Source: Thermoplasmatota archaeon
GTDB taxonomy: Archaea > Thermoplasmatota > JASEFT01
Assembly: GCA_030018475.1 (NCBI GenBank)
Contig: JASEFT010000002.1
Span: 26,037 to 73,851, forward strand
Direction of reading: 5' to 3'
Length of the DNA stretch: 47,815 bases
A program made the position numbers and the translations under genes. Below, piece after piece: positions 23,578 through 31,753 of the stretch; position 1 is the stretch's first letter; each line of letters opens with the position of its first letter. Below the pieces are notes generated by a model, which was given only the letters and a program-made list of their open reading frames with translations, was not told the DNA's origin and did no database searches.

Positions 23578-23937
23578 TTATTTTTTAGGCCTTTCCTTTA
23601 GCTTTCTTTTCTTCTTTTGGATTAATTCTTTATAAGCATCGTTAAGCTCTTTTAGCTGTCTAAAATGTTCTGATAAGATGCAGAGATACAGACCTTCTTT
23701 ACCTTTGAGCGGAAAAGGTCTATAGCCTGGAATGCTACCTCTGCCAATGATCTTTATGGCTTTAAGAGGTTTTAGTTTCTTGTATTCTTTGCACGCTTCA
23801 TTAACTTTCTGGAGTTTTTCAGCATGCTTTACAGATATAAAGAAATACAATCCTTTTTGTCTTCTAATTGGGAAAGGTTGCTCGCCACCCCTCTTACCGA
23901 TGATTTCGATCTTCCCCAGCGCTCCCACTTTCGCCAT
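23578..23937 (-). CDS. protein composed of two tandem copies of a ~45-aa novel domain (standalone paralog of the N-terminus of GvpF/L 30263..31753)
   Basis: IIGKRGGEQPFPIRRQKGLYFFISVKHAEKLQKVNEACKEY and IIGRGSIPGYRPFPLKGKEGLYLCILSEHFRQLKELNDAYKEL. Compare IIGKRSGEEPFSVSGQRGLYLYIRTEDFDKLSKINKLCKSL and IIGRGSFPGYRPFLVKGQEGSWLCILAEHFRQLKELNSAY in ORF 30263. Confidence 0.5.
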   Translation of the reverse strand: MAKVGALGKIEIIGKRGGEQPFPIRRQKGLYFFISVKHAEKLQKVNEACKEYKKLKPLKAIKIIGRGSIPGYRPFPLKGKEGLYLCILSEHFRQLKELNDAYKELIQKKKRKLKERPKK

Positions 23938-24059
23938 CCTATCACCGTCCTATTATATGCTTAGCTCTTATTATATCTTTTCCTTGAGCTATGCTTAAAC
24001 TCTGCAACACGGATTTTCAATGCAAAACTCCTCAAGAATGACTTCGATTGCAGAGTTTA

Positions 24060-26282
24060 CTAAACCCTCCATTCCTCTTTCTCCTTCGGTCTCTCTTCTT
24101 CTACATATTCCGCAAACTCTTTCATTATTTCTTCGTAATGTCTTAGTACTGCAGGCGTCATTGTAGGTTTGACTTTCTTAATAGCTTGGTCAAAATGACG
24201 CAGCTCTACCTTTTTATCTTTTAAAATTTTCTTCAATTCCTTTCTATCCATACCTGGCTTAACAACCTCTCTCAAAGATAACATTACAGCTTCCCTGCAA
24301 ATCGCTTCAAGATCAGCACCCACATAATTTGATGTCTTTTCCGCAAGCTCATCGAGATCAACGTCTTTTGCTAAAGGCTTGCCTTCTAGATGTATTTCTA
24401 ATATCTTCTTTCGTTCTTCTTTACCAGGTGGCGGAATATAGATAAGCCTATCAATTCTACCTGGTCTAAGTAAAGCTTTGTCTATCATATCTGGTCTGTT
24501 ACTGGCGCACAGCACAACAACATCTTTCAGCTCTTCCAAGCCATCAAGTTCGGTCAAGAGCTGGCTGACTACACGCTCGCTAACGTGAGAGTCGAAACTT
24601 ACAGTTCTTGAAGGCGCCATTGAATCTATCTCATCAAAAAATATAATACAAGGCGCAGCTTGACGTGCTTTCCTGAACATCTCTCTCACTCCTCTTTCAG
24701 ATTCCCCAACGAACTTGCTCAGTAGCTCAGGACCTTTAATTGAAATAAAGTTCGCTTCGCTTTCTGTAGCTACTGCTTTTGCAAGCAATGTTTTCCCAGT
24801 ACCTGGAGGGCCGTAAAGCAAAATTCCTTTTGGAGGCTTTGTTTTGAAAGTCTCGAAAACTTCAGGATATTTCAAAGGCCACTCTACAGCTTCAATAAGC
24901 TCTTGTTTAGCCTGCTCTAAGCCTCCTACATCTTTCCATTTAACTTTAGGAGCTTCAATAAAAACCTCGCGCATAGCGCTTGGTGTTACTCCTTTCAATG
25001 CTCCATAGAAATCGTCCATTGTTATTTCTAAAGCTTCTAAAATCTCAGGCGGTATTTCTTCTTCTATGTTTATTTTAGGTAAAATTTTGCGTAGTGCATG
25101 CATTGCAGACTCTTTGCACAAAGCAGCCAAATCAGCGCCTACAAATCCATGAGTTATATCTGCAATTTTATCTAAATCTACCTTTTCATCCAGGGGCATA
25201 CCTCTTGTGTGTATTTGCAAAATTTCTAGCCTGCCGTTTCTATCAGGAATGCCAATTTCTATTTCGCGATCGAATCTACCCCCCCTTCTTAGAGCACTGT
25301 CCAGAAGGTCAGGTTGATTAGTAGCTCCTATAACAACAATTTTCCCTTTCGTCTTCAAGCCATCCATCAAAGCAAGCAACTGCGCTACTACTCTGCGCTC
25401 AACCATGCGTTCGCCAGTCATCTCGCTACGCTTGGGCGCAATCGAATCTAGCTCGTCAATCAATACAATTGAAGGTGGATTGTTCTCAGCTTCTTCGAAT
25501 ATTTCCCTCAGCCTAGCTTCGCTCTCGCCATAATATTTACCTATAATCTCAGGACCTGAAATAATTAAAAAGTTAGCATCAGTTTCGTTTGCTACTGCTT
25601 TTGCAATTAGCGTTTTACCTGTGCCTGGCGGTCCATGCAGCAAAACGCCTTTAGGAGGCTCAACACCTAGCTTTTGGAAGAGCTCTGGATGCTTTAATGG
25701 CAGTTCTACCATTTCTCTAATTAGGCCTACTTCTCTTTTCAAGCCCCCTATATCTTCGTAAGTCACGTAAGTTCTTAGCGCTTCTATAGGCTTTTCACTC
25801 AGCGCAATTTCAGTTTCTGATGTAACGAGAGTTACTCCTGAAGGTTGTGTTGAAGTAACAATAAAAGTTAGTGGCGTGCCTAGTACATCAACTCTGAGCT
25901 GCTGACCTTTAACAACAGGCTGACCTTCTAAAACCTTGCGTAAAAATTCTTCGCCTCTTACTATTCTTACAGGCTGAGCTGGCGCTATACCGAGCTTTTT
26001 CGCTTCCCGTGCCTCTGTCTTTTTAACTTCAACTCTTTCATCTATACTAATACCTGCATTGCTCCTGATATTACCATCTATTCTAATAAGTTCTCTATCA
26101 GCATCTTCGGGATAGCCAGGCCATACAATTGCATAAGCTAAAGATTTGCCTTTTAGCTCAATAATATCGCCGCTCACTAAACCGAGCTTTTTCATTATCT
26201 CGGTATCTATTCTAGCAATACCTCTGCCTGCATCGCGGTGCTTTGCTTCTGCTACCCGTAACGTTACTGGCATCTTTATCAC
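24060..26282 (-). CDS. cdc48: CDC48/VCP-like AAA+ ATPase (N domain + D1 + D2)
   Basis: CDC48 N-domain ([24 protein letters not shown]). Two AAA modules each have a Walker A, GPPGTGKT, plus Walker B hydrophobic-DELD and second-region-of-homology arginines. 740 aa. Confidence 0.95.
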
Positions 26283-29852: not shown

Positions 29853-29860
29853 TTTTTAGT

Positions 29861-30262
29861 TCACCTCCTTATCCTATATCTTGGTTTTTTACCTTTTTTA
29901 GTCCCTTTCTTTTTTAATTGCAGGGCGCGATCAAACTCATCTATAATTTCGGACCTTCTTCTCTCATATTTTTCTTTTGTTATTTTACCAGATTCGTAAA
30001 GTGTCTTAATTTCTTTAAGAGGCTTTTCTAAAGACTTAGTAATTTCAAGTCTTTTCGAGAGCTCAGAGTTTATTTTCTCATAATCTTCTTTAGTTATCTC
30101 CTCTGCCTCATAAAGCAACTTGTTTTCTTCAAGCGCAGCTTTGATTTTTTCAGGATCGTAAACTTCTAAATAAGCAAGATCTCGTATTTTTTTAAGTATT
30201 TGAGTAGAGAGCTCGGTAGTAGGTTCGATAAGAAGCTTGTATGCTAGATATGAGAAGACCAT
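29861..30262 (-). CDS. GvpG-like protein (second copy, with duplicated YE-GxITKExYE motif)
   Basis: LAYLEVYDPEKIKAALEENKLLYEAEEITKEDYEKINSEL and LYESGKITKEKYERRRSEI. Confidence 0.5.
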   Translation of the reverse strand: MVFSYLAYKLLIEPTTELSTQILKKIRDLAYLEVYDPEKIKAALEENKLLYEAEEITKEDYEKINSELSKRLEITKSLEKPLKEIKTLYESGKITKEKYERRRSEIIDEFDRALQLKKKGTKKGKKPRYRIRR

Positions 30263-31753
30263 TTAGCTCACCTCTTTTCTTCCGACTTCTATACCTTTTG
30301 CACCGATCTTGACGCATACAAAACTATAGGGCGGCCAGGGCCCGGAATATTTAAGTATCAGATCCTTATATCTTTCGCTTAGTTGCCCAATTTCTTTAGA
30401 GAAGTCTTTTATTTTATGCTTGGGGACTAGGTAAGAGGCGTTTAGAATCAGCCTATCGCTAAACAATCTGCCTCTGACCGCTTCCGCAGCTTTTTTAGTG
30501 AGTGTATTGAAAATTTTTTCTCCCTCATTCTTAAGCTTTATCTTCTTCTTATCATCTAAAGATTTCACGGCCTGCTTAGGCACGATAGCTTTTACGCCCA
30601 GTTCGACTTTGTTATCTATCAATTTTGTACATTCTTTTAGAGCCTTATAGGCTTTTTTTATTAACACCCTTAGGATTTTCGGATTCTTGAAAACCTGTCC
30701 AAACGCAGCAGGAACTATAGAATACTTTTCTAACACTTTTCTTACAACTCCTTCGTGCGTTCTGGAATATTCTTCGGTCACAGAATAGTCTTTCACAGGC
30801 GTATCGCTAACAACTGCTGCTAAATCTTTGTAATTAATTGTATAGACCCTGCTTCCATCGCCTATTCCAATATTTCCAAACCTTATTTCTTTTTCAGGTG
30901 CAGGTATTATGCCGTAGAGATATTTACCTTCCGGGACTTTTAGTTTGAGTTTTCTTTCAGCTTCTGATTTAGCATAGCTTGCGAGCTCTACAGCTTTTGG
31001 TATTAGTTTGATAGTTTTATCATATTTTGCAGCACTAAATACTTTCTTTATTTCAGCGAACGATTTCTCCACTTCTTGCATTATCTCAGGAACATATTTT
31101 AGCGCTTTTGCTTCCCTAGCTTCTTCAACTGCTTTTCTCAGACTTGTCAATGCATTCTTTGCCTTTTTCCTCTTTTCTTCTACTTTCTTCTTCCGTACCT
31201 CTTCCAGTTTAAGCTTCCTTTCTTCTTCAAGCCTTCTTTCTTCCTCTAATTTCTTCTTCCGCTCAGCTTCTCTCTTCTTTCTCGCTCTTTCAAGTTTTTT
31301 CTTCCTTTCTTCCTCAAGTAATCTTTTCTCCTCTAATTTTTTTCTAAGCTCAGCTTCGCGCCTCTTTCTCTCGGCTTCCTTCCTTCTCTCCTCCACTTCC
31401 AAAACCCTGCGGTATGCAGAATTGAGCTCTTTTAACTGCCTAAAATGCTCTGCAAGAATACAAAGCCAAGAGCCCTCTTGGCCTTTAACCAAAAAAGGTC
31501 TATAGCCTGGAAAAGAGCCTCTACCGATAATCTTTACACTCTCAAGAGTTTTGCCAGCGAGTTCAGGTAAAGACTTGCACAGCTTGTTTATTTTGCTCAG
31601 TTTATCAAAATCTTCAGTTCTAATATAGAGATAGAGACCTCTCTGTCCACTTACTGAAAAAGGTTCTTCTCCACTTCTCTTACCAATAATTTCAAGCTTT
31701 TCAAGAGGCTTTAATTTTATCCTAGCCATTCCCTCACCAGTTGCTTTACTCAA
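30263..31753 (-). CDS. GvpF/L-family protein with N-terminal tandem novel domain and E/R/K-rich coiled-coil linker
   Basis: The C-terminal 250 aa are GvpF/L (YLYGIIPAPEKEIRFGNIGIGDGSRVYTINYKDLAAVVSD...YSGPWPPYSF). The N-terminal 115 aa are the duplicated domain shared with ORF 23578. The middle ~90 aa are an ERK repeat. Confidence 0.7.
   Translation of the reverse strand: MSKATGEGMARIKLKPLEKLEIIGKRSGEEPFSVSGQRGLYLYIRTEDFDKLSKINKLCKSLPELAGKTLESVKIIGRGSFPGYRPFLVKGQEGSWLCILAEHFRQLKELNSAYRRVLEVEERRKEAERKRREAELRKKLEEKRLLEEERKKKLERARKKREAERKKKLEEERRLEEERKLKLEEVRKKKVEEKRKKAKNALTSLRKAVEEAREAKALKYVPEIMQEVEKSFAEIKKVFSAAKYDKTIKLIPKAVELASYAKSEAERKLKLKVPEGKYLYGIIPAPEKEIRFGNIGIGDGSRVYTINYKDLAAVVSDTPVKDYSVTEEYSRTHEGVVRKVLEKYSIVPAAFGQVFKNPKILRVLIKKAYKALKECTKLIDNKVELGVKAIVPKQAVKSLDDKKKIKLKNEGEKIFNTLTKKAAEAVRGRLFSDRLILNASYLVPKHKIKDFSKEIGQLSERYKDLILKYSGPWPPYSFVCVKIGAKGIEVGRKEVS
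31195..31400. repeat. ~105-bp imperfect tandem duplication within the E/R/K linker-coding region of ORF 30263..31753
   Basis: Two consecutive ~35-codon units encode LEEKRLLEEERKKKLERARKKREAERKKK and LEEERRLEEERKLKLEEVRKKKVEEKRKK. Confidence 0.4.

What the first reader, a model, noticed from the sequence alone, without database searches (positions are those of the whole stretch)
23578..31753. Novel ~45-aa duplicated domain present both as a standalone tandem protein and as the N-terminal extension of a GvpF/L
ORF 23578..23937 is two copies of the domain and nothing else. ORF 30263..31753 is the same two copies, then an E/R/K coiled-coil linker, then a GvpF/L domain. The second repeat is nearly identical between the two genes, CILSEHFRQLKELNDAY against CILAEHFRQLKELNSAY. 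This implies recent gene conversion or strong constraint. I do not recognise the domain.
Basis: seen in the sequence. Interest (0 to 1): 0.6.

Follow-up and report, generated by a model that had tools for sequence, protein, structure and literature searches.

The report
Unclassified tandem domain on archaeal GvpF
A small, previously undescribed two-repeat protein module occurs both alone (usually next to a CDC48 unfoldase gene) and tethered to the gas-vesicle assembly protein GvpF in a handful of uncultured archaea; it is real, rare and conserved, but what it does is only inferred.

Summary
Both ORFs exist, on the minus strand. ORF A (23578..23937, 119 aa) is two ~50-aa units plus a K/R tail. 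A and B share 56% identity over 107 aa, and the internal duplication is significant (z 13-14).

The "recent gene conversion" reading is rejected. In the near-identical stretch, third-codon identity is 42%, and standalone and fused copies cluster by type across genomes. They are old paralogues under purifying selection.

Synteny is conserved:
- The fused copy always follows a MEDS-PadR regulator and precedes GvpG.
- The standalone copy usually lies between CDC48 and a conserved 106-aa ORF, and is dispensable in some lineages.
- One family member lies outside any gvp cluster.

Best guess, by inference only: a non-catalytic docking module linking GvpF to the cluster's CDC48. This parallels the GvpF/L-J-domain/DnaK pair in the same cluster.

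The parts
23578..23937 (-). Standalone tandem-module protein, 119 aa. Two units plus a K/R-rich tail; very basic (module net charge +13).
   Evidence: ORF. Pairwise and shuffle statistics. Charge. Orthologue P0001 is 98% identical, from a Thermoplasmatota MAG.
23779..23922 (-). Unit 1 of the standalone protein (residues ~6-53): beta strand, G-K-x-G turn, beta (PF), beta (GLYxxI), long helix (L..iN..Y).
   Evidence: Unit HMM domain hit, E 4e-22. AF2 secondary structure.
23623..23772 (-). Unit 2 of the standalone protein (residues ~56-105). The more conserved unit: IKIVGRGG.GYRPFLLKG..G.YLCILAEH..QL.EIN.AY.
   Evidence: Unit HMM domain hit, E 3e-26. Consensus.
30263..31729 (-). Tandem module, tether, GvpF/L fusion protein. 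488 aa from ATG 31729; the mechanical ORF list starts at TTG 31753.
   Evidence: Orthologues P0004, P0007, P0009, P0015, P0018, P0021 and the fused genes of L003, L008, L010, L012, L017, L018, L020-L022.
31568..31711 (-). Unit 1 of the fusion protein.
   Evidence: Unit HMM domain hit, E 5e-20.
31403..31552 (-). Unit 2 of the fusion protein.
   Evidence: Unit HMM domain hit, E 4e-22.
31154..31402 (-). ER/K-rich alpha-helical spacer, ~83 aa. The whole 160-aa tether is 58% E+R+K. Single-alpha-helix-like or coiled coil; not resolved.
   Evidence: Composition and length variation among orthologues, 31-295 aa. Tether identity 26% against 49% for the flanking domains.
30929..31153 (-). Conserved helical element (..LKYVPEIMQEVEKSFAEIKKVF..YDKTIKLIPKAVELA..AKSEA..). 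One copy here, 2-3 in L012/L017, absent in P0015, P0018 and P0021.
   Evidence: Only sub-threshold Pfam hits in orthologues: DUF4398 at 20.7 bits, Cytochrom_B562 at 24.1 bits.
30266..30928 (-). GvpL_GvpF domain (PF06386).
   Evidence: E 6.2e-40, 138 bits. Its position upstream of GvpG matches the gvpF slot of gvpFGHIJKLM (PMC7688916).
24060..26282 (-). CDC48/VAT-type double-ring AAA+ ATPase, immediately upstream of the standalone gene (122-nt spacer).
   Evidence: CDC48_N, CDC48_2 and 2x AAA. The same adjacency occurs in L001-L005, L010, L016 and L021.
23247..23567 (-). Conserved 106-aa ORF, 10 nt downstream of the standalone gene. Weak single Kelch-blade similarity.
   Evidence: Conserved after the module in L001, L002, L006/7, L010, L011, L018 and L021. 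Directly after CDC48 in L012 and L017. PDB sequence hit to designed Kelch propellers, E 7.6e-10.
31746..32561 (-). MEDS + PadR regulator, always immediately upstream of the fusion gene.
   Evidence: Synteny across window, L003, L008-L010, L012-L015, L017, L020-L022, and PadR in L025.
29568..30262 (-). Two GvpG genes (29861..30262 with a SHOCT tail; 29568..29852), immediately downstream of the fusion gene.
   Evidence: PF05120, E 1e-17 and 1e-14. Synteny.
17120..20064 (+). Analogous arrangement in the same cluster: a GvpF/L-J-domain fusion (17120..18160) overlapping DnaK/Hsp70 (18157..20064).
   Evidence: GvpL_GvpF 4.7e-62 plus DnaJ 1.3e-14; HSP70 3e-185. Conserved in L002, L006 and L008.

Best explanation
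The two ~50-aa units fold together into one compact, pseudo-symmetric, non-catalytic docking module. In its constant form the module is held on the N-terminus of the GvpF-position GvpF/L protein by a helical or disordered tether of very variable length. GvpF is the primary, chaperone-like binder of the shell protein GvpA.

A second, very basic copy is encoded on its own, usually as the gene after the cluster's CDC48 unfoldase and before a small Kelch-like ORF.

Proposed mechanism: the module is the handle through which CDC48, possibly together with orf106, is coupled to GvpF and its GvpA-type clients. The free copy would act as a soluble adaptor or a competitor for the same site. This mirrors the neighbouring GvpF/L paralogue, which carries a J-domain and is followed by DnaK.

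Shown:
- the anatomy, the rarity and the lack of any known relative
- old paralogy under purifying selection
- the synteny

Inferred:
- that the module binds a partner at all
- that the partner is CDC48
For: 1. Real domain under selection.
- 22 representatives in 1.84e9 proteins. Every member has exactly two units.
- Module identity among 13 fusion orthologues is 49%, equal to the GvpF/L domain. The tether is at 26% and 31-295 aa long. This is the signature of an independently functioning head on a leash.

2. No catalytic signature.
- Invariant residues are Gly and Phe of turns and core.
- The conserved Cys and His of unit 2 are replaced in several members.
- AF2 gives a compact model: pLDDT 82.6, pTM 0.68.

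3. Synteny.
- The standalone gene is directly downstream of CDC48 in the window, L001-L005, L010, L016 and L021.
- CDC48 is also present in gvp clusters that have only the fused copy: L012, L017, L025.
- orf106 follows with 10 nt or overlapping spacing.

4. Precedent in the same cluster.
- A GvpF/L-J-domain fusion directly precedes DnaK. GvpF/L paralogues here are therefore already used as platforms for recruiting ATP-dependent chaperones.

5. Position and role of GvpF.
- The fusion occupies the gvpF slot before gvpG.
- GvpF is the primary GvpA binder, later displaced by GvpG (PMC7688916; PMC11445434).
Against: - There is no direct evidence of any interaction. Everything about the partner rests on gene neighbourhood.
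- In L006/L007 and L011 the standalone gene is not directly downstream of CDC48.
- In L024 a K-rich-tailed member sits in a gvpA operon with no CDC48 in view.
- In L023 the module occurs with no gvp gene and no CDC48 nearby.
- No similarity to any known CDC48/p97 cofactor domain was detected.
- The strong positive charge and lysine-rich tails of the standalone forms fit binding to a polyanion at least as well.
- The AF2 model rests on only 18 sequences.
Confidence: 0.3

Rival explanations
1. Polyanion or nucleic-acid binding module. The pseudo-dimer, with two G-[KR]-x-G hairpin loops, binds RNA or DNA, or the negatively charged outer face of the gas vesicle. The standalone protein would be a small basic binder. 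The fused copy would tether GvpF to gvp mRNA or the ribosome for co-translational capture of GvpA, or to the vesicle surface.
For: - Standalone modules carry net +5 to +15 charge and K/R tails. P0012 and P0019 have 120-190-aa lysine/proline-rich, histone-H1-like tails.
- The conserved G-[KR]-G-G loops sit at the strand turns.
- P0013 combines the module with a Zn-ribbon next to translation genes.
- Early, possibly co-translational, binding of GvpA by GvpF has been proposed (PMC11445434).
Against: - Fused modules in several lineages are neutral or acidic, net -2 to +2. Positive charge is therefore not a conserved property of the domain.
- There are no Pfam hits to KH, AbrB, RHH or other nucleic-acid-binding families, even at E <= 10.
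- hhalign to MraZ and AbrB gives probability < 1%.
- Foldseek KH matches have probability <= 0.11.
Confidence: 0.2
2. Self-association or scaffolding module. The tandem units oligomerise with each other (fused with fused, or fused with standalone). This would make GvpF multivalent at the nucleation site. The free copy would cap or tune oligomer size, so standalone and fused copies bind each other rather than a third partner.
For: - Unit 2 is strongly conserved between the standalone and fused paralogues despite saturated synonymous sites. That is expected if the two copies must keep recognising the same surface, which could be each other.
- The pseudo-symmetric architecture and the rod-like ER/K tether.
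- The standalone copy is lost or degraded in some lineages while the fused copy persists. That fits an accessory modulator.
Against: - There is no evidence of oligomerisation.
- The standalone gene's consistent placement after CDC48 rather than next to the fusion gene is unexplained.
- P0013 shows the module working in a non-gvp protein.
Confidence: 0.15
3. Direct binder of GvpA-family proteins, for example the adjacent GvpA-PH fusion, GvpJ or GvpM. This would be an extra client-binding head that extends GvpF's reach, with the standalone copy as a small holdase.
For: - Almost all occurrences are in gvp clusters.
- The standalone gene/orf106 pair lies convergent to the GvpA-PH gene in the window, L002, L006/7, L010 and L017.
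- GvpF/L proteins are hubs for GvpA/J/M contacts (PMC6107691; PMC7688916).
Against: - Convergent gene ends are weak evidence.
- L003, L004 and L025 have the module but only ordinary-length Gas_vesicle genes, with no PH-type extension listed.
- One member lies outside gvp clusters.
Confidence: 0.15
4. Recent gene conversion between the two genes explains the near-identical second repeat.
For: 16 of 19 residues are identical in the flagged helix.
Against: - Third-position identity is 42% in that stretch, and 5 of 16 identical residues share a codon. Overall nucleotide identity is 62%.
- The same helix is conserved family-wide.
- Standalone and fused modules cluster by type, not by genome, in L003, L018 and L021.
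Confidence: 0.02

Closest known systems
GvpF / GvpL (PF06386) of Halobacterium salinarum, Microcystis aeruginosa and Bacillus megaterium
   Same: The C-terminal 221 aa of ORF B are a bona fide GvpL_GvpF domain. The gene sits in the gvpF slot upstream of gvpG. GvpF is the primary, chaperone-like GvpA binder (PMC7688916; PMC11445434).
   Different: From my own knowledge, the characterised GvpF/L proteins are ~210-280 aa with no N-terminal module. Here a ~105-aa tandem module and a 31-295-aa tether precede the domain.
GvpF/L-J-domain fusion plus DnaK in the same window (17120..20064)
   Same: A GvpF/L paralogue fused to a small recruiting domain, with the cognate ATP-dependent chaperone encoded next to a copy of that domain. 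This is the working analogy for module and CDC48.
   Different: The J-domain is a known family with a known partner. The tandem module has no known family or partner. Its fusion is N-terminal rather than C-terminal, and it also exists as a free protein.
CDC48/p97/VAT cofactor domains (UBX, SHP box, VIM, PUB; Ufd1-Npl4)
   Same: Small modules, often tethered by long linkers to an effector or substrate-binding part, that dock on the CDC48 N-domain (established knowledge). The standalone gene directly follows CDC48 in 10 loci counting the window.
   Different: No sequence or fold similarity was detected. No binding was shown. From my own knowledge, dedicated CDC48 adaptors are essentially uncharacterised in archaea.
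Small basic gas-vesicle accessory proteins (haloarchaeal GvpI; B. megaterium GvpU)
   Same: Small, basic or tail-bearing accessory proteins encoded in gvp clusters.
   Different: No Pfam or NCBIfam Gvp family matches the module. L003 and L025 have separate ORFs in the gvpH/I positions. The comparison to GvpI and GvpU rests on my own knowledge and was not tested by alignment.

Membership tests
GvpL_GvpF (PF06386), C-terminal domain of ORF B | Profile match above Pfam's gathering score | tested here: met
   138.2 bits against a cut-off of 23.6, E 6.2e-40. Orthologues score 140-170 bits.
GvpL_GvpF, gvpF-type position | First gene of the accessory operon, directly upstream of gvpG | tested here: met
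   Window, L003, L008, L010, L012, L017, L018, L020-L022 and L025. L003 and L025 continue with G...J..K-L-M.
NCBIfam GvpL / cyanobacterial GvpF equivalogs | Score above the equivalog cut-off | tested here: not met
   33.4 against 200 and 26.7 against 350 bits. Not assignable to either equivalog.
Any Pfam-A / NCBIfam family, for the tandem module | Profile match at or near threshold | tested here: not met
   No hit for ORF A or the N-terminus of ORF B. No family recurs among 18 members even at E <= 10.
Any solved structure, for the tandem module | Sequence-profile or fold match | tested here: not met
AbrB / MraZ swapped-hairpin (cradle-loop) tandem domains | Profile-profile similarity | tested here: not met
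   hhalign probability 0.2% and 0.1%.
KH domain (GXXG loop) | KH profile match; beta-alpha-alpha-beta-beta-alpha fold | tested here: not met
   No KH family in Pfam scans. Foldseek KH hits have probability <= 0.11. The predicted order is beta-beta-beta-alpha.
CDC48/p97 cofactor | Known cofactor domain (UBX, PUB, VIM, SHP and so on) | tested here: not met
   No such Pfam hit.
CDC48/p97 cofactor | Physical binding to CDC48, typically its N-domain | not testable with these tools
   Only synteny is available. Structure-prediction jobs were exhausted before a complex could be modelled.
ER/K single alpha-helix (SAH) spacer | Long E/R/K-rich helix without a hydrophobic heptad seam | tested here: inconclusive
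   The 160-aa tether is 58% E+R+K. By eye, ~18% of the ER/K stretch is hydrophobic. Neither a coiled-coil nor a SAH predictor was run.

The most novel reading that the evidence does not exclude
The tandem module is a dedicated adaptor domain for an archaeal CDC48/VAT unfoldase. It docks CDC48 onto the GvpF-GvpA assembly intermediate. That would make CDC48-driven unfolding part of gas-vesicle biogenesis or recycling, either by extracting GvpA or by preventing its aggregation. The free basic copy and the Kelch-like orf106 would act as co-adaptors or regulators.
Probability: 0.22. Interest if true: 0.75.

Novelty: new variant of a known kind. Interest (0 to 1): 0.5.

Why it matters
**Assembly.** Gas vesicles are built from an extremely aggregation-prone shell protein, and how it is chaperoned into the wall is still unclear. 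These uncultured archaea carry gvp clusters loaded with ATP-dependent chaperones (GvpN, DnaK with a J-domain-GvpF/L, ArsA, CDC48). They also carry a GvpF bearing a conserved head domain with no known relatives.

**If the CDC48 link holds.** If that head recruits CDC48, it would be a rare example of an archaeal CDC48 adaptor. It would also point to unfoldase-assisted assembly or recycling of gas vesicles.

**Application.** This is relevant to engineering gas vesicles as acoustic reporters, where heterologous assembly is limited by proteotoxic stress (PMC12848028).

**Minimum value.** Even without the CDC48 link, this defines a new domain family suitable for a Pfam entry, and a marker for this lineage's gvp clusters.

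Tried and rejected
1. **Gene conversion.** Rejected by codon analysis and by the tree.
2. **MraZ/AbrB-type tandem swapped-hairpin.** Considered because of the ~45-50-aa tandem units and G-[KR]-x-G loops. hhalign probability is < 1%.
3. **KH-like GXXG motif.** No Pfam KH hit, Foldseek probability <= 0.11, and the predicted topology differs.
4. **SHP-box resemblance (F-x-G-x-G-x-x-L, recalled from memory).** The module's loop is h-h-G-[KR]-x-G without the spacer residue. Not pursued and not counted as evidence.
5. **Catalytic or metal site from the conserved Cys/His of unit 2.** Both residues are substituted in several members.
7. **Word-indexed search with the fusion's N-terminal module.** Found nothing.
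8. **Genome-contig scan with the 18-sequence alignment.** The 6-sequence alignment gave one locus.
9. **afdb50 fold library.** Unavailable.
10. **Viral contigs and the plasmid collection.** No relatives.
11. **Literature searches.** Searches for gas vesicles with CDC48, ArsA/Hsp20, Thermoplasmatota or N-terminal extensions of GvpF found no description of this module.

Full report
**1. Observation**

Both ORFs exist at the given coordinates, but on the minus strand.
- ORF A (23578..23937) encodes 119 aa.
- ORF B is listed from TTG 31753 (496 aa).
- The ATG at 31729 is preceded by GGTGAGG, lies 17 nt after the stop of the upstream gene, and aligns with Met1 of orthologue P0004. I therefore take 30263..31729 (488 aa) as the gene.
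- BLASTP of A against B gives 56% identity over 107 aa, E 7e-40.
- Within each protein the two halves align with z = 13-14 against 500 shuffles, and none of the shuffles reaches the observed score. The second units of A and B align with z = 41.
- The quoted peptide strings are exact.
- The C-terminal 221 aa of B are GvpL_GvpF (PF06386, 138 bits).

**2. Anatomy**

A profile built from single units finds exactly two tandem units in every family member examined, across the window and 25 loci. There are no extra copies in any other ORF.

The unit consensus is `.PL..IkIvG+GG.G..PF...G..G.Y..ILAE....L..IN.AY`. Unit 2 is the better conserved.

AlphaFold2 results:
- With an 18-sequence alignment: a compact model with pLDDT 82.6 and pTM 0.68. 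Each unit is strand, tight G-[KR]-x-G turn, strand (PF), strand (GLYxxI), long helix.
- With a 4-sequence alignment: a poor model, pLDDT 62.

After the module:
- ORF A has only a 13-aa K/R tail.
- ORF B continues into ~80 aa of ER/K-rich helix.
- ORF B then has a ~75-aa helical element (LKYVPE...YDK...KLIP), followed by GvpF/L.
- The helical element is conserved in most orthologues, repeated two or three times in L012 and L017, and absent in P0015, P0018 and P0021.

**3. Is it a known domain?**

| Search | Result |
|---|---|
| Pfam and NCBIfam on ORF A and ORF B | nothing for the module |
| Pfam on all 18 aligned members at E <= 10 | no recurring family |
| HMM profiles against all PDB sequences | best E 0.044 and 1.1 |
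| Foldseek on the confident model | no hit with E <= 1e-3 |
| AlphaFold database | could not be searched |
| hhalign against MraZ and AbrB | probability < 1% |

No paper in the held library describes the module. Every database member is labelled 'hypothetical protein'.

**4. How widespread?**

An exhaustive hmmsearch of 1.84 billion cluster representatives returned 22 proteins with E <= 1e-3, of which 19 have E <= 1e-10.
- Six are long and have the same architecture as ORF B: module, tether, GvpL_GvpF.
- Most of the others are 100-140-aa standalone proteins.
- P0012 and P0019 carry 120-190-aa lysine/proline-rich tails.
- P0013 carries a Zn-ribbon and a DUF5752-like C-terminus.

Named sources are 'Candidatus Thermoplasmatota archaeon' MAGs and one MAG labelled Methanocellales. 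Locus L002, from GCA_030017735.1, is 97-100% identical in protein to the window for most shared genes, with a few small ORFs at 89-95%. The window therefore most likely comes from that species.

No relatives were found in viral contigs or the plasmid collection.

**5. Synteny**

I annotated the first 22 loci by BLASTP with the window's own proteins. L023-L025 were annotated from precomputed Pfam calls.

The fused gene:
- It always follows a MEDS-PadR regulator and precedes GvpG. This holds for the window, L003, L008, L010, L012, L017, L018, L020-L022 and L025. Partial copies occur in L009 and L013-L015.
- In L003 and L025 the operon continues G...J..K-L-M, which is the haloarchaeal gvpFGHIJKLM order. 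The fusion is therefore the GvpF-position protein (PMC7688916).

The standalone gene:
- It lies directly downstream of CDC48 in the window, L001-L005, L010, L016 and L021.
- A conserved 106-aa ORF follows it at 10 nt or overlapping spacing in the window, L001, L002, L006/7, L010, L011, L018 and L021.
- L012 and L017 have CDC48 followed directly by orf106, with no standalone copy. L025 has CDC48 after gvpM and no standalone copy.
- L010's copy has lost its start and has substitutions at conserved positions, so it is probably a pseudogene. L001's frameshift is at a T8 run, so it is probably an assembly error.

The fused copy is therefore the constant feature and the free copy is facultative.

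Exceptions to the CDC48 adjacency are L006/7, L011 and L024. L023 has no gvp context at all: its neighbours are V4R, SepF, EF-1alpha, EF-2, S7 and S12.

**6. Gene conversion or constraint?**

In the flagged stretch (A residues 85-103):
- Amino-acid identity is 84% and nucleotide identity is 68%.
- Third-position identity is 42%.
- Only 5 of 16 identical residues share a codon.

A neighbour-joining tree of modules places the standalone copies of L018 and L021 together with other standalone sequences (bootstrap 94). It places the fused copies of L003, L018 and L021 together (bootstrap 99). L003's standalone copy pairs with L004's (bootstrap 100) rather than with L003's fused copy. W_S groups with the standalone L006 and P0006 (bootstrap 75) rather than with W_F.

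The two genes are old paralogues under purifying selection. Recent conversion is rejected.

**7. Constraint profile**

Among 13 fusion orthologues, mean pairwise identity is:
- 49% for the module
- 49% for the GvpF/L domain
- 26% for the tether, whose length ranges from 31 to 295 aa

This is what is expected of an autonomous head domain held on a leash.

Invariant positions are Gly and Phe of turns and core. The conserved Cys and His of unit 2 are replaced in several members, so a catalytic or metal site is unlikely.

Standalone modules are uniformly basic (net +5 to +15). Fused ones range from -2 to +10.

**8. Mechanism**

What is shown: a rare, conserved, non-catalytic, pseudo-dimeric module exists. 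In these archaea it is tethered to the GvpF-position protein and separately encoded next to CDC48.

What is inferred: its partner. I favour coupling to the cluster's CDC48 (confidence about 0.3), for three reasons:
- The free gene, CDC48 and orf106 form a recurrent gene string.
- CDC48 is present in every sufficiently long gvp locus that carries the module.
- The same cluster already contains a GvpF/L paralogue fused to a J-domain and followed by DnaK. Recruiting ATP-dependent chaperones through GvpF/L fusions is therefore an established theme here.

GvpF is the primary, transient, chaperone-like binder of GvpA and is displaced by GvpG (PMC7688916; PMC11445434). A CDC48 handle on GvpF would bring an unfoldase to GvpA-type clients.

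Rivals:
- polyanion or nucleic-acid binding, supported by the charge and tails of the free forms and by the Zn-ribbon member
- self-association or scaffolding
- direct binding of GvpA-family proteins

None can be excluded without interaction data.

**9. Novelty and score**

The system (a gas-vesicle cluster, GvpF) is known. The module is, as far as these libraries and the literature search can show, undescribed and without detectable relatives. I class it as a new variant of a known kind, with interest 0.5.

It is a solid new domain family with a testable link to CDC48, but its function is unproven and its distribution is narrow.

Noticed in passing
window 22578..23156 (+): A GvpA-type Gas_vesicle domain (PF00741, E 8e-16) is fused to a C-terminal bacterial-PH / Vps36-GLUE-like domain. 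The fusion is conserved in L002, L006/7, L010, L011, L017, L018, L021 and L022. An unusual shell-protein fusion.
   Followed up: partly
window 17120..18160 (+) and 18157..20064 (+): A GvpF/L protein with a C-terminal J-domain overlaps the start of a DnaK/Hsp70 gene by 4 nt. Conserved in L002, L006 and L008. A dedicated Hsp70 system inside a gvp cluster.
   Followed up: partly
window 23247..23567 (-): A conserved 106-aa ORF follows the standalone module, or follows CDC48 directly in L012 and L017. No Pfam hit, but residues 31-78 match one blade of designed Kelch propellers (E 7.6e-10). It may be a single-blade protein that oligomerises.
   Followed up: partly
window 24060..26282 (-): A CDC48/VAT gene is embedded in the gvp cluster, and likewise in L001-L005, L010, L012, L016, L017, L021 and L025. 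I found no paper describing CDC48 as a gvp-cluster component. Its C-terminus (..EEWRV) has no penultimate Tyr; proteasome-docking HbYX status was not tested.
   Followed up: partly
window 26313..26612 (-) and 26597..26809 (-): Two small overlapping ORFs lie upstream of CDC48. One has an ALVDSGSS motif reminiscent of retropepsin-like aspartic proteases (no Pfam hit at E <= 0.01). The other is DUF5678. Possibly an inserted two-gene cassette. The first is also present in L002.
   Followed up: no
window 27572..29533 (-); 14557..15945 (+): A tandem ArsA/Get3-type ATPase and two Hsp20-like proteins, one matching the ArsA_HSP20 domain, lie within the cluster. ArsA association with gas-vesicle genes has been discussed before (PMC2963123).
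   Followed up: no
window 20460..21086 (+); 9791..10168 and 21825..22421 (+): Two pairs of unannotated paralogous small ORFs: orf20460/orf20865, and orf9791/orf21825. The second family sits between GvpN and GvpO in L003, L004 and L025.
   Followed up: no
window 5895..6911 (+), 31746..32561 (-); 8769..9779 and 10894..11931 (+): The cluster has two MEDS-PadR regulators and two GvpN-type AAA_5 ATPases, which suggests a composite or duplicated gvp cluster.
   Followed up: no
L010 7409..7731 (-); L001 2134..2506 (+): The standalone copy is degraded in L010: no start, a frameshift, and substitutions at conserved positions. In L001 it is frameshifted at a T8 run, which is probably an assembly error.
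   Followed up: yes
L024 1837..2859 (-): A Volactin (archaeal actin-like) gene lies beside a gvp cluster that encodes the K-rich-tailed module protein P0012.
   Followed up: no
L023 22..2117 (+): The only non-gvp context of the module. P0013 (module + Zn-ribbon + DUF5752-like C-terminus) is flanked by a V4R-like ORF, a small ORF and SepF, next to EF-1alpha, EF-2, S7 and S12.
   Followed up: partly
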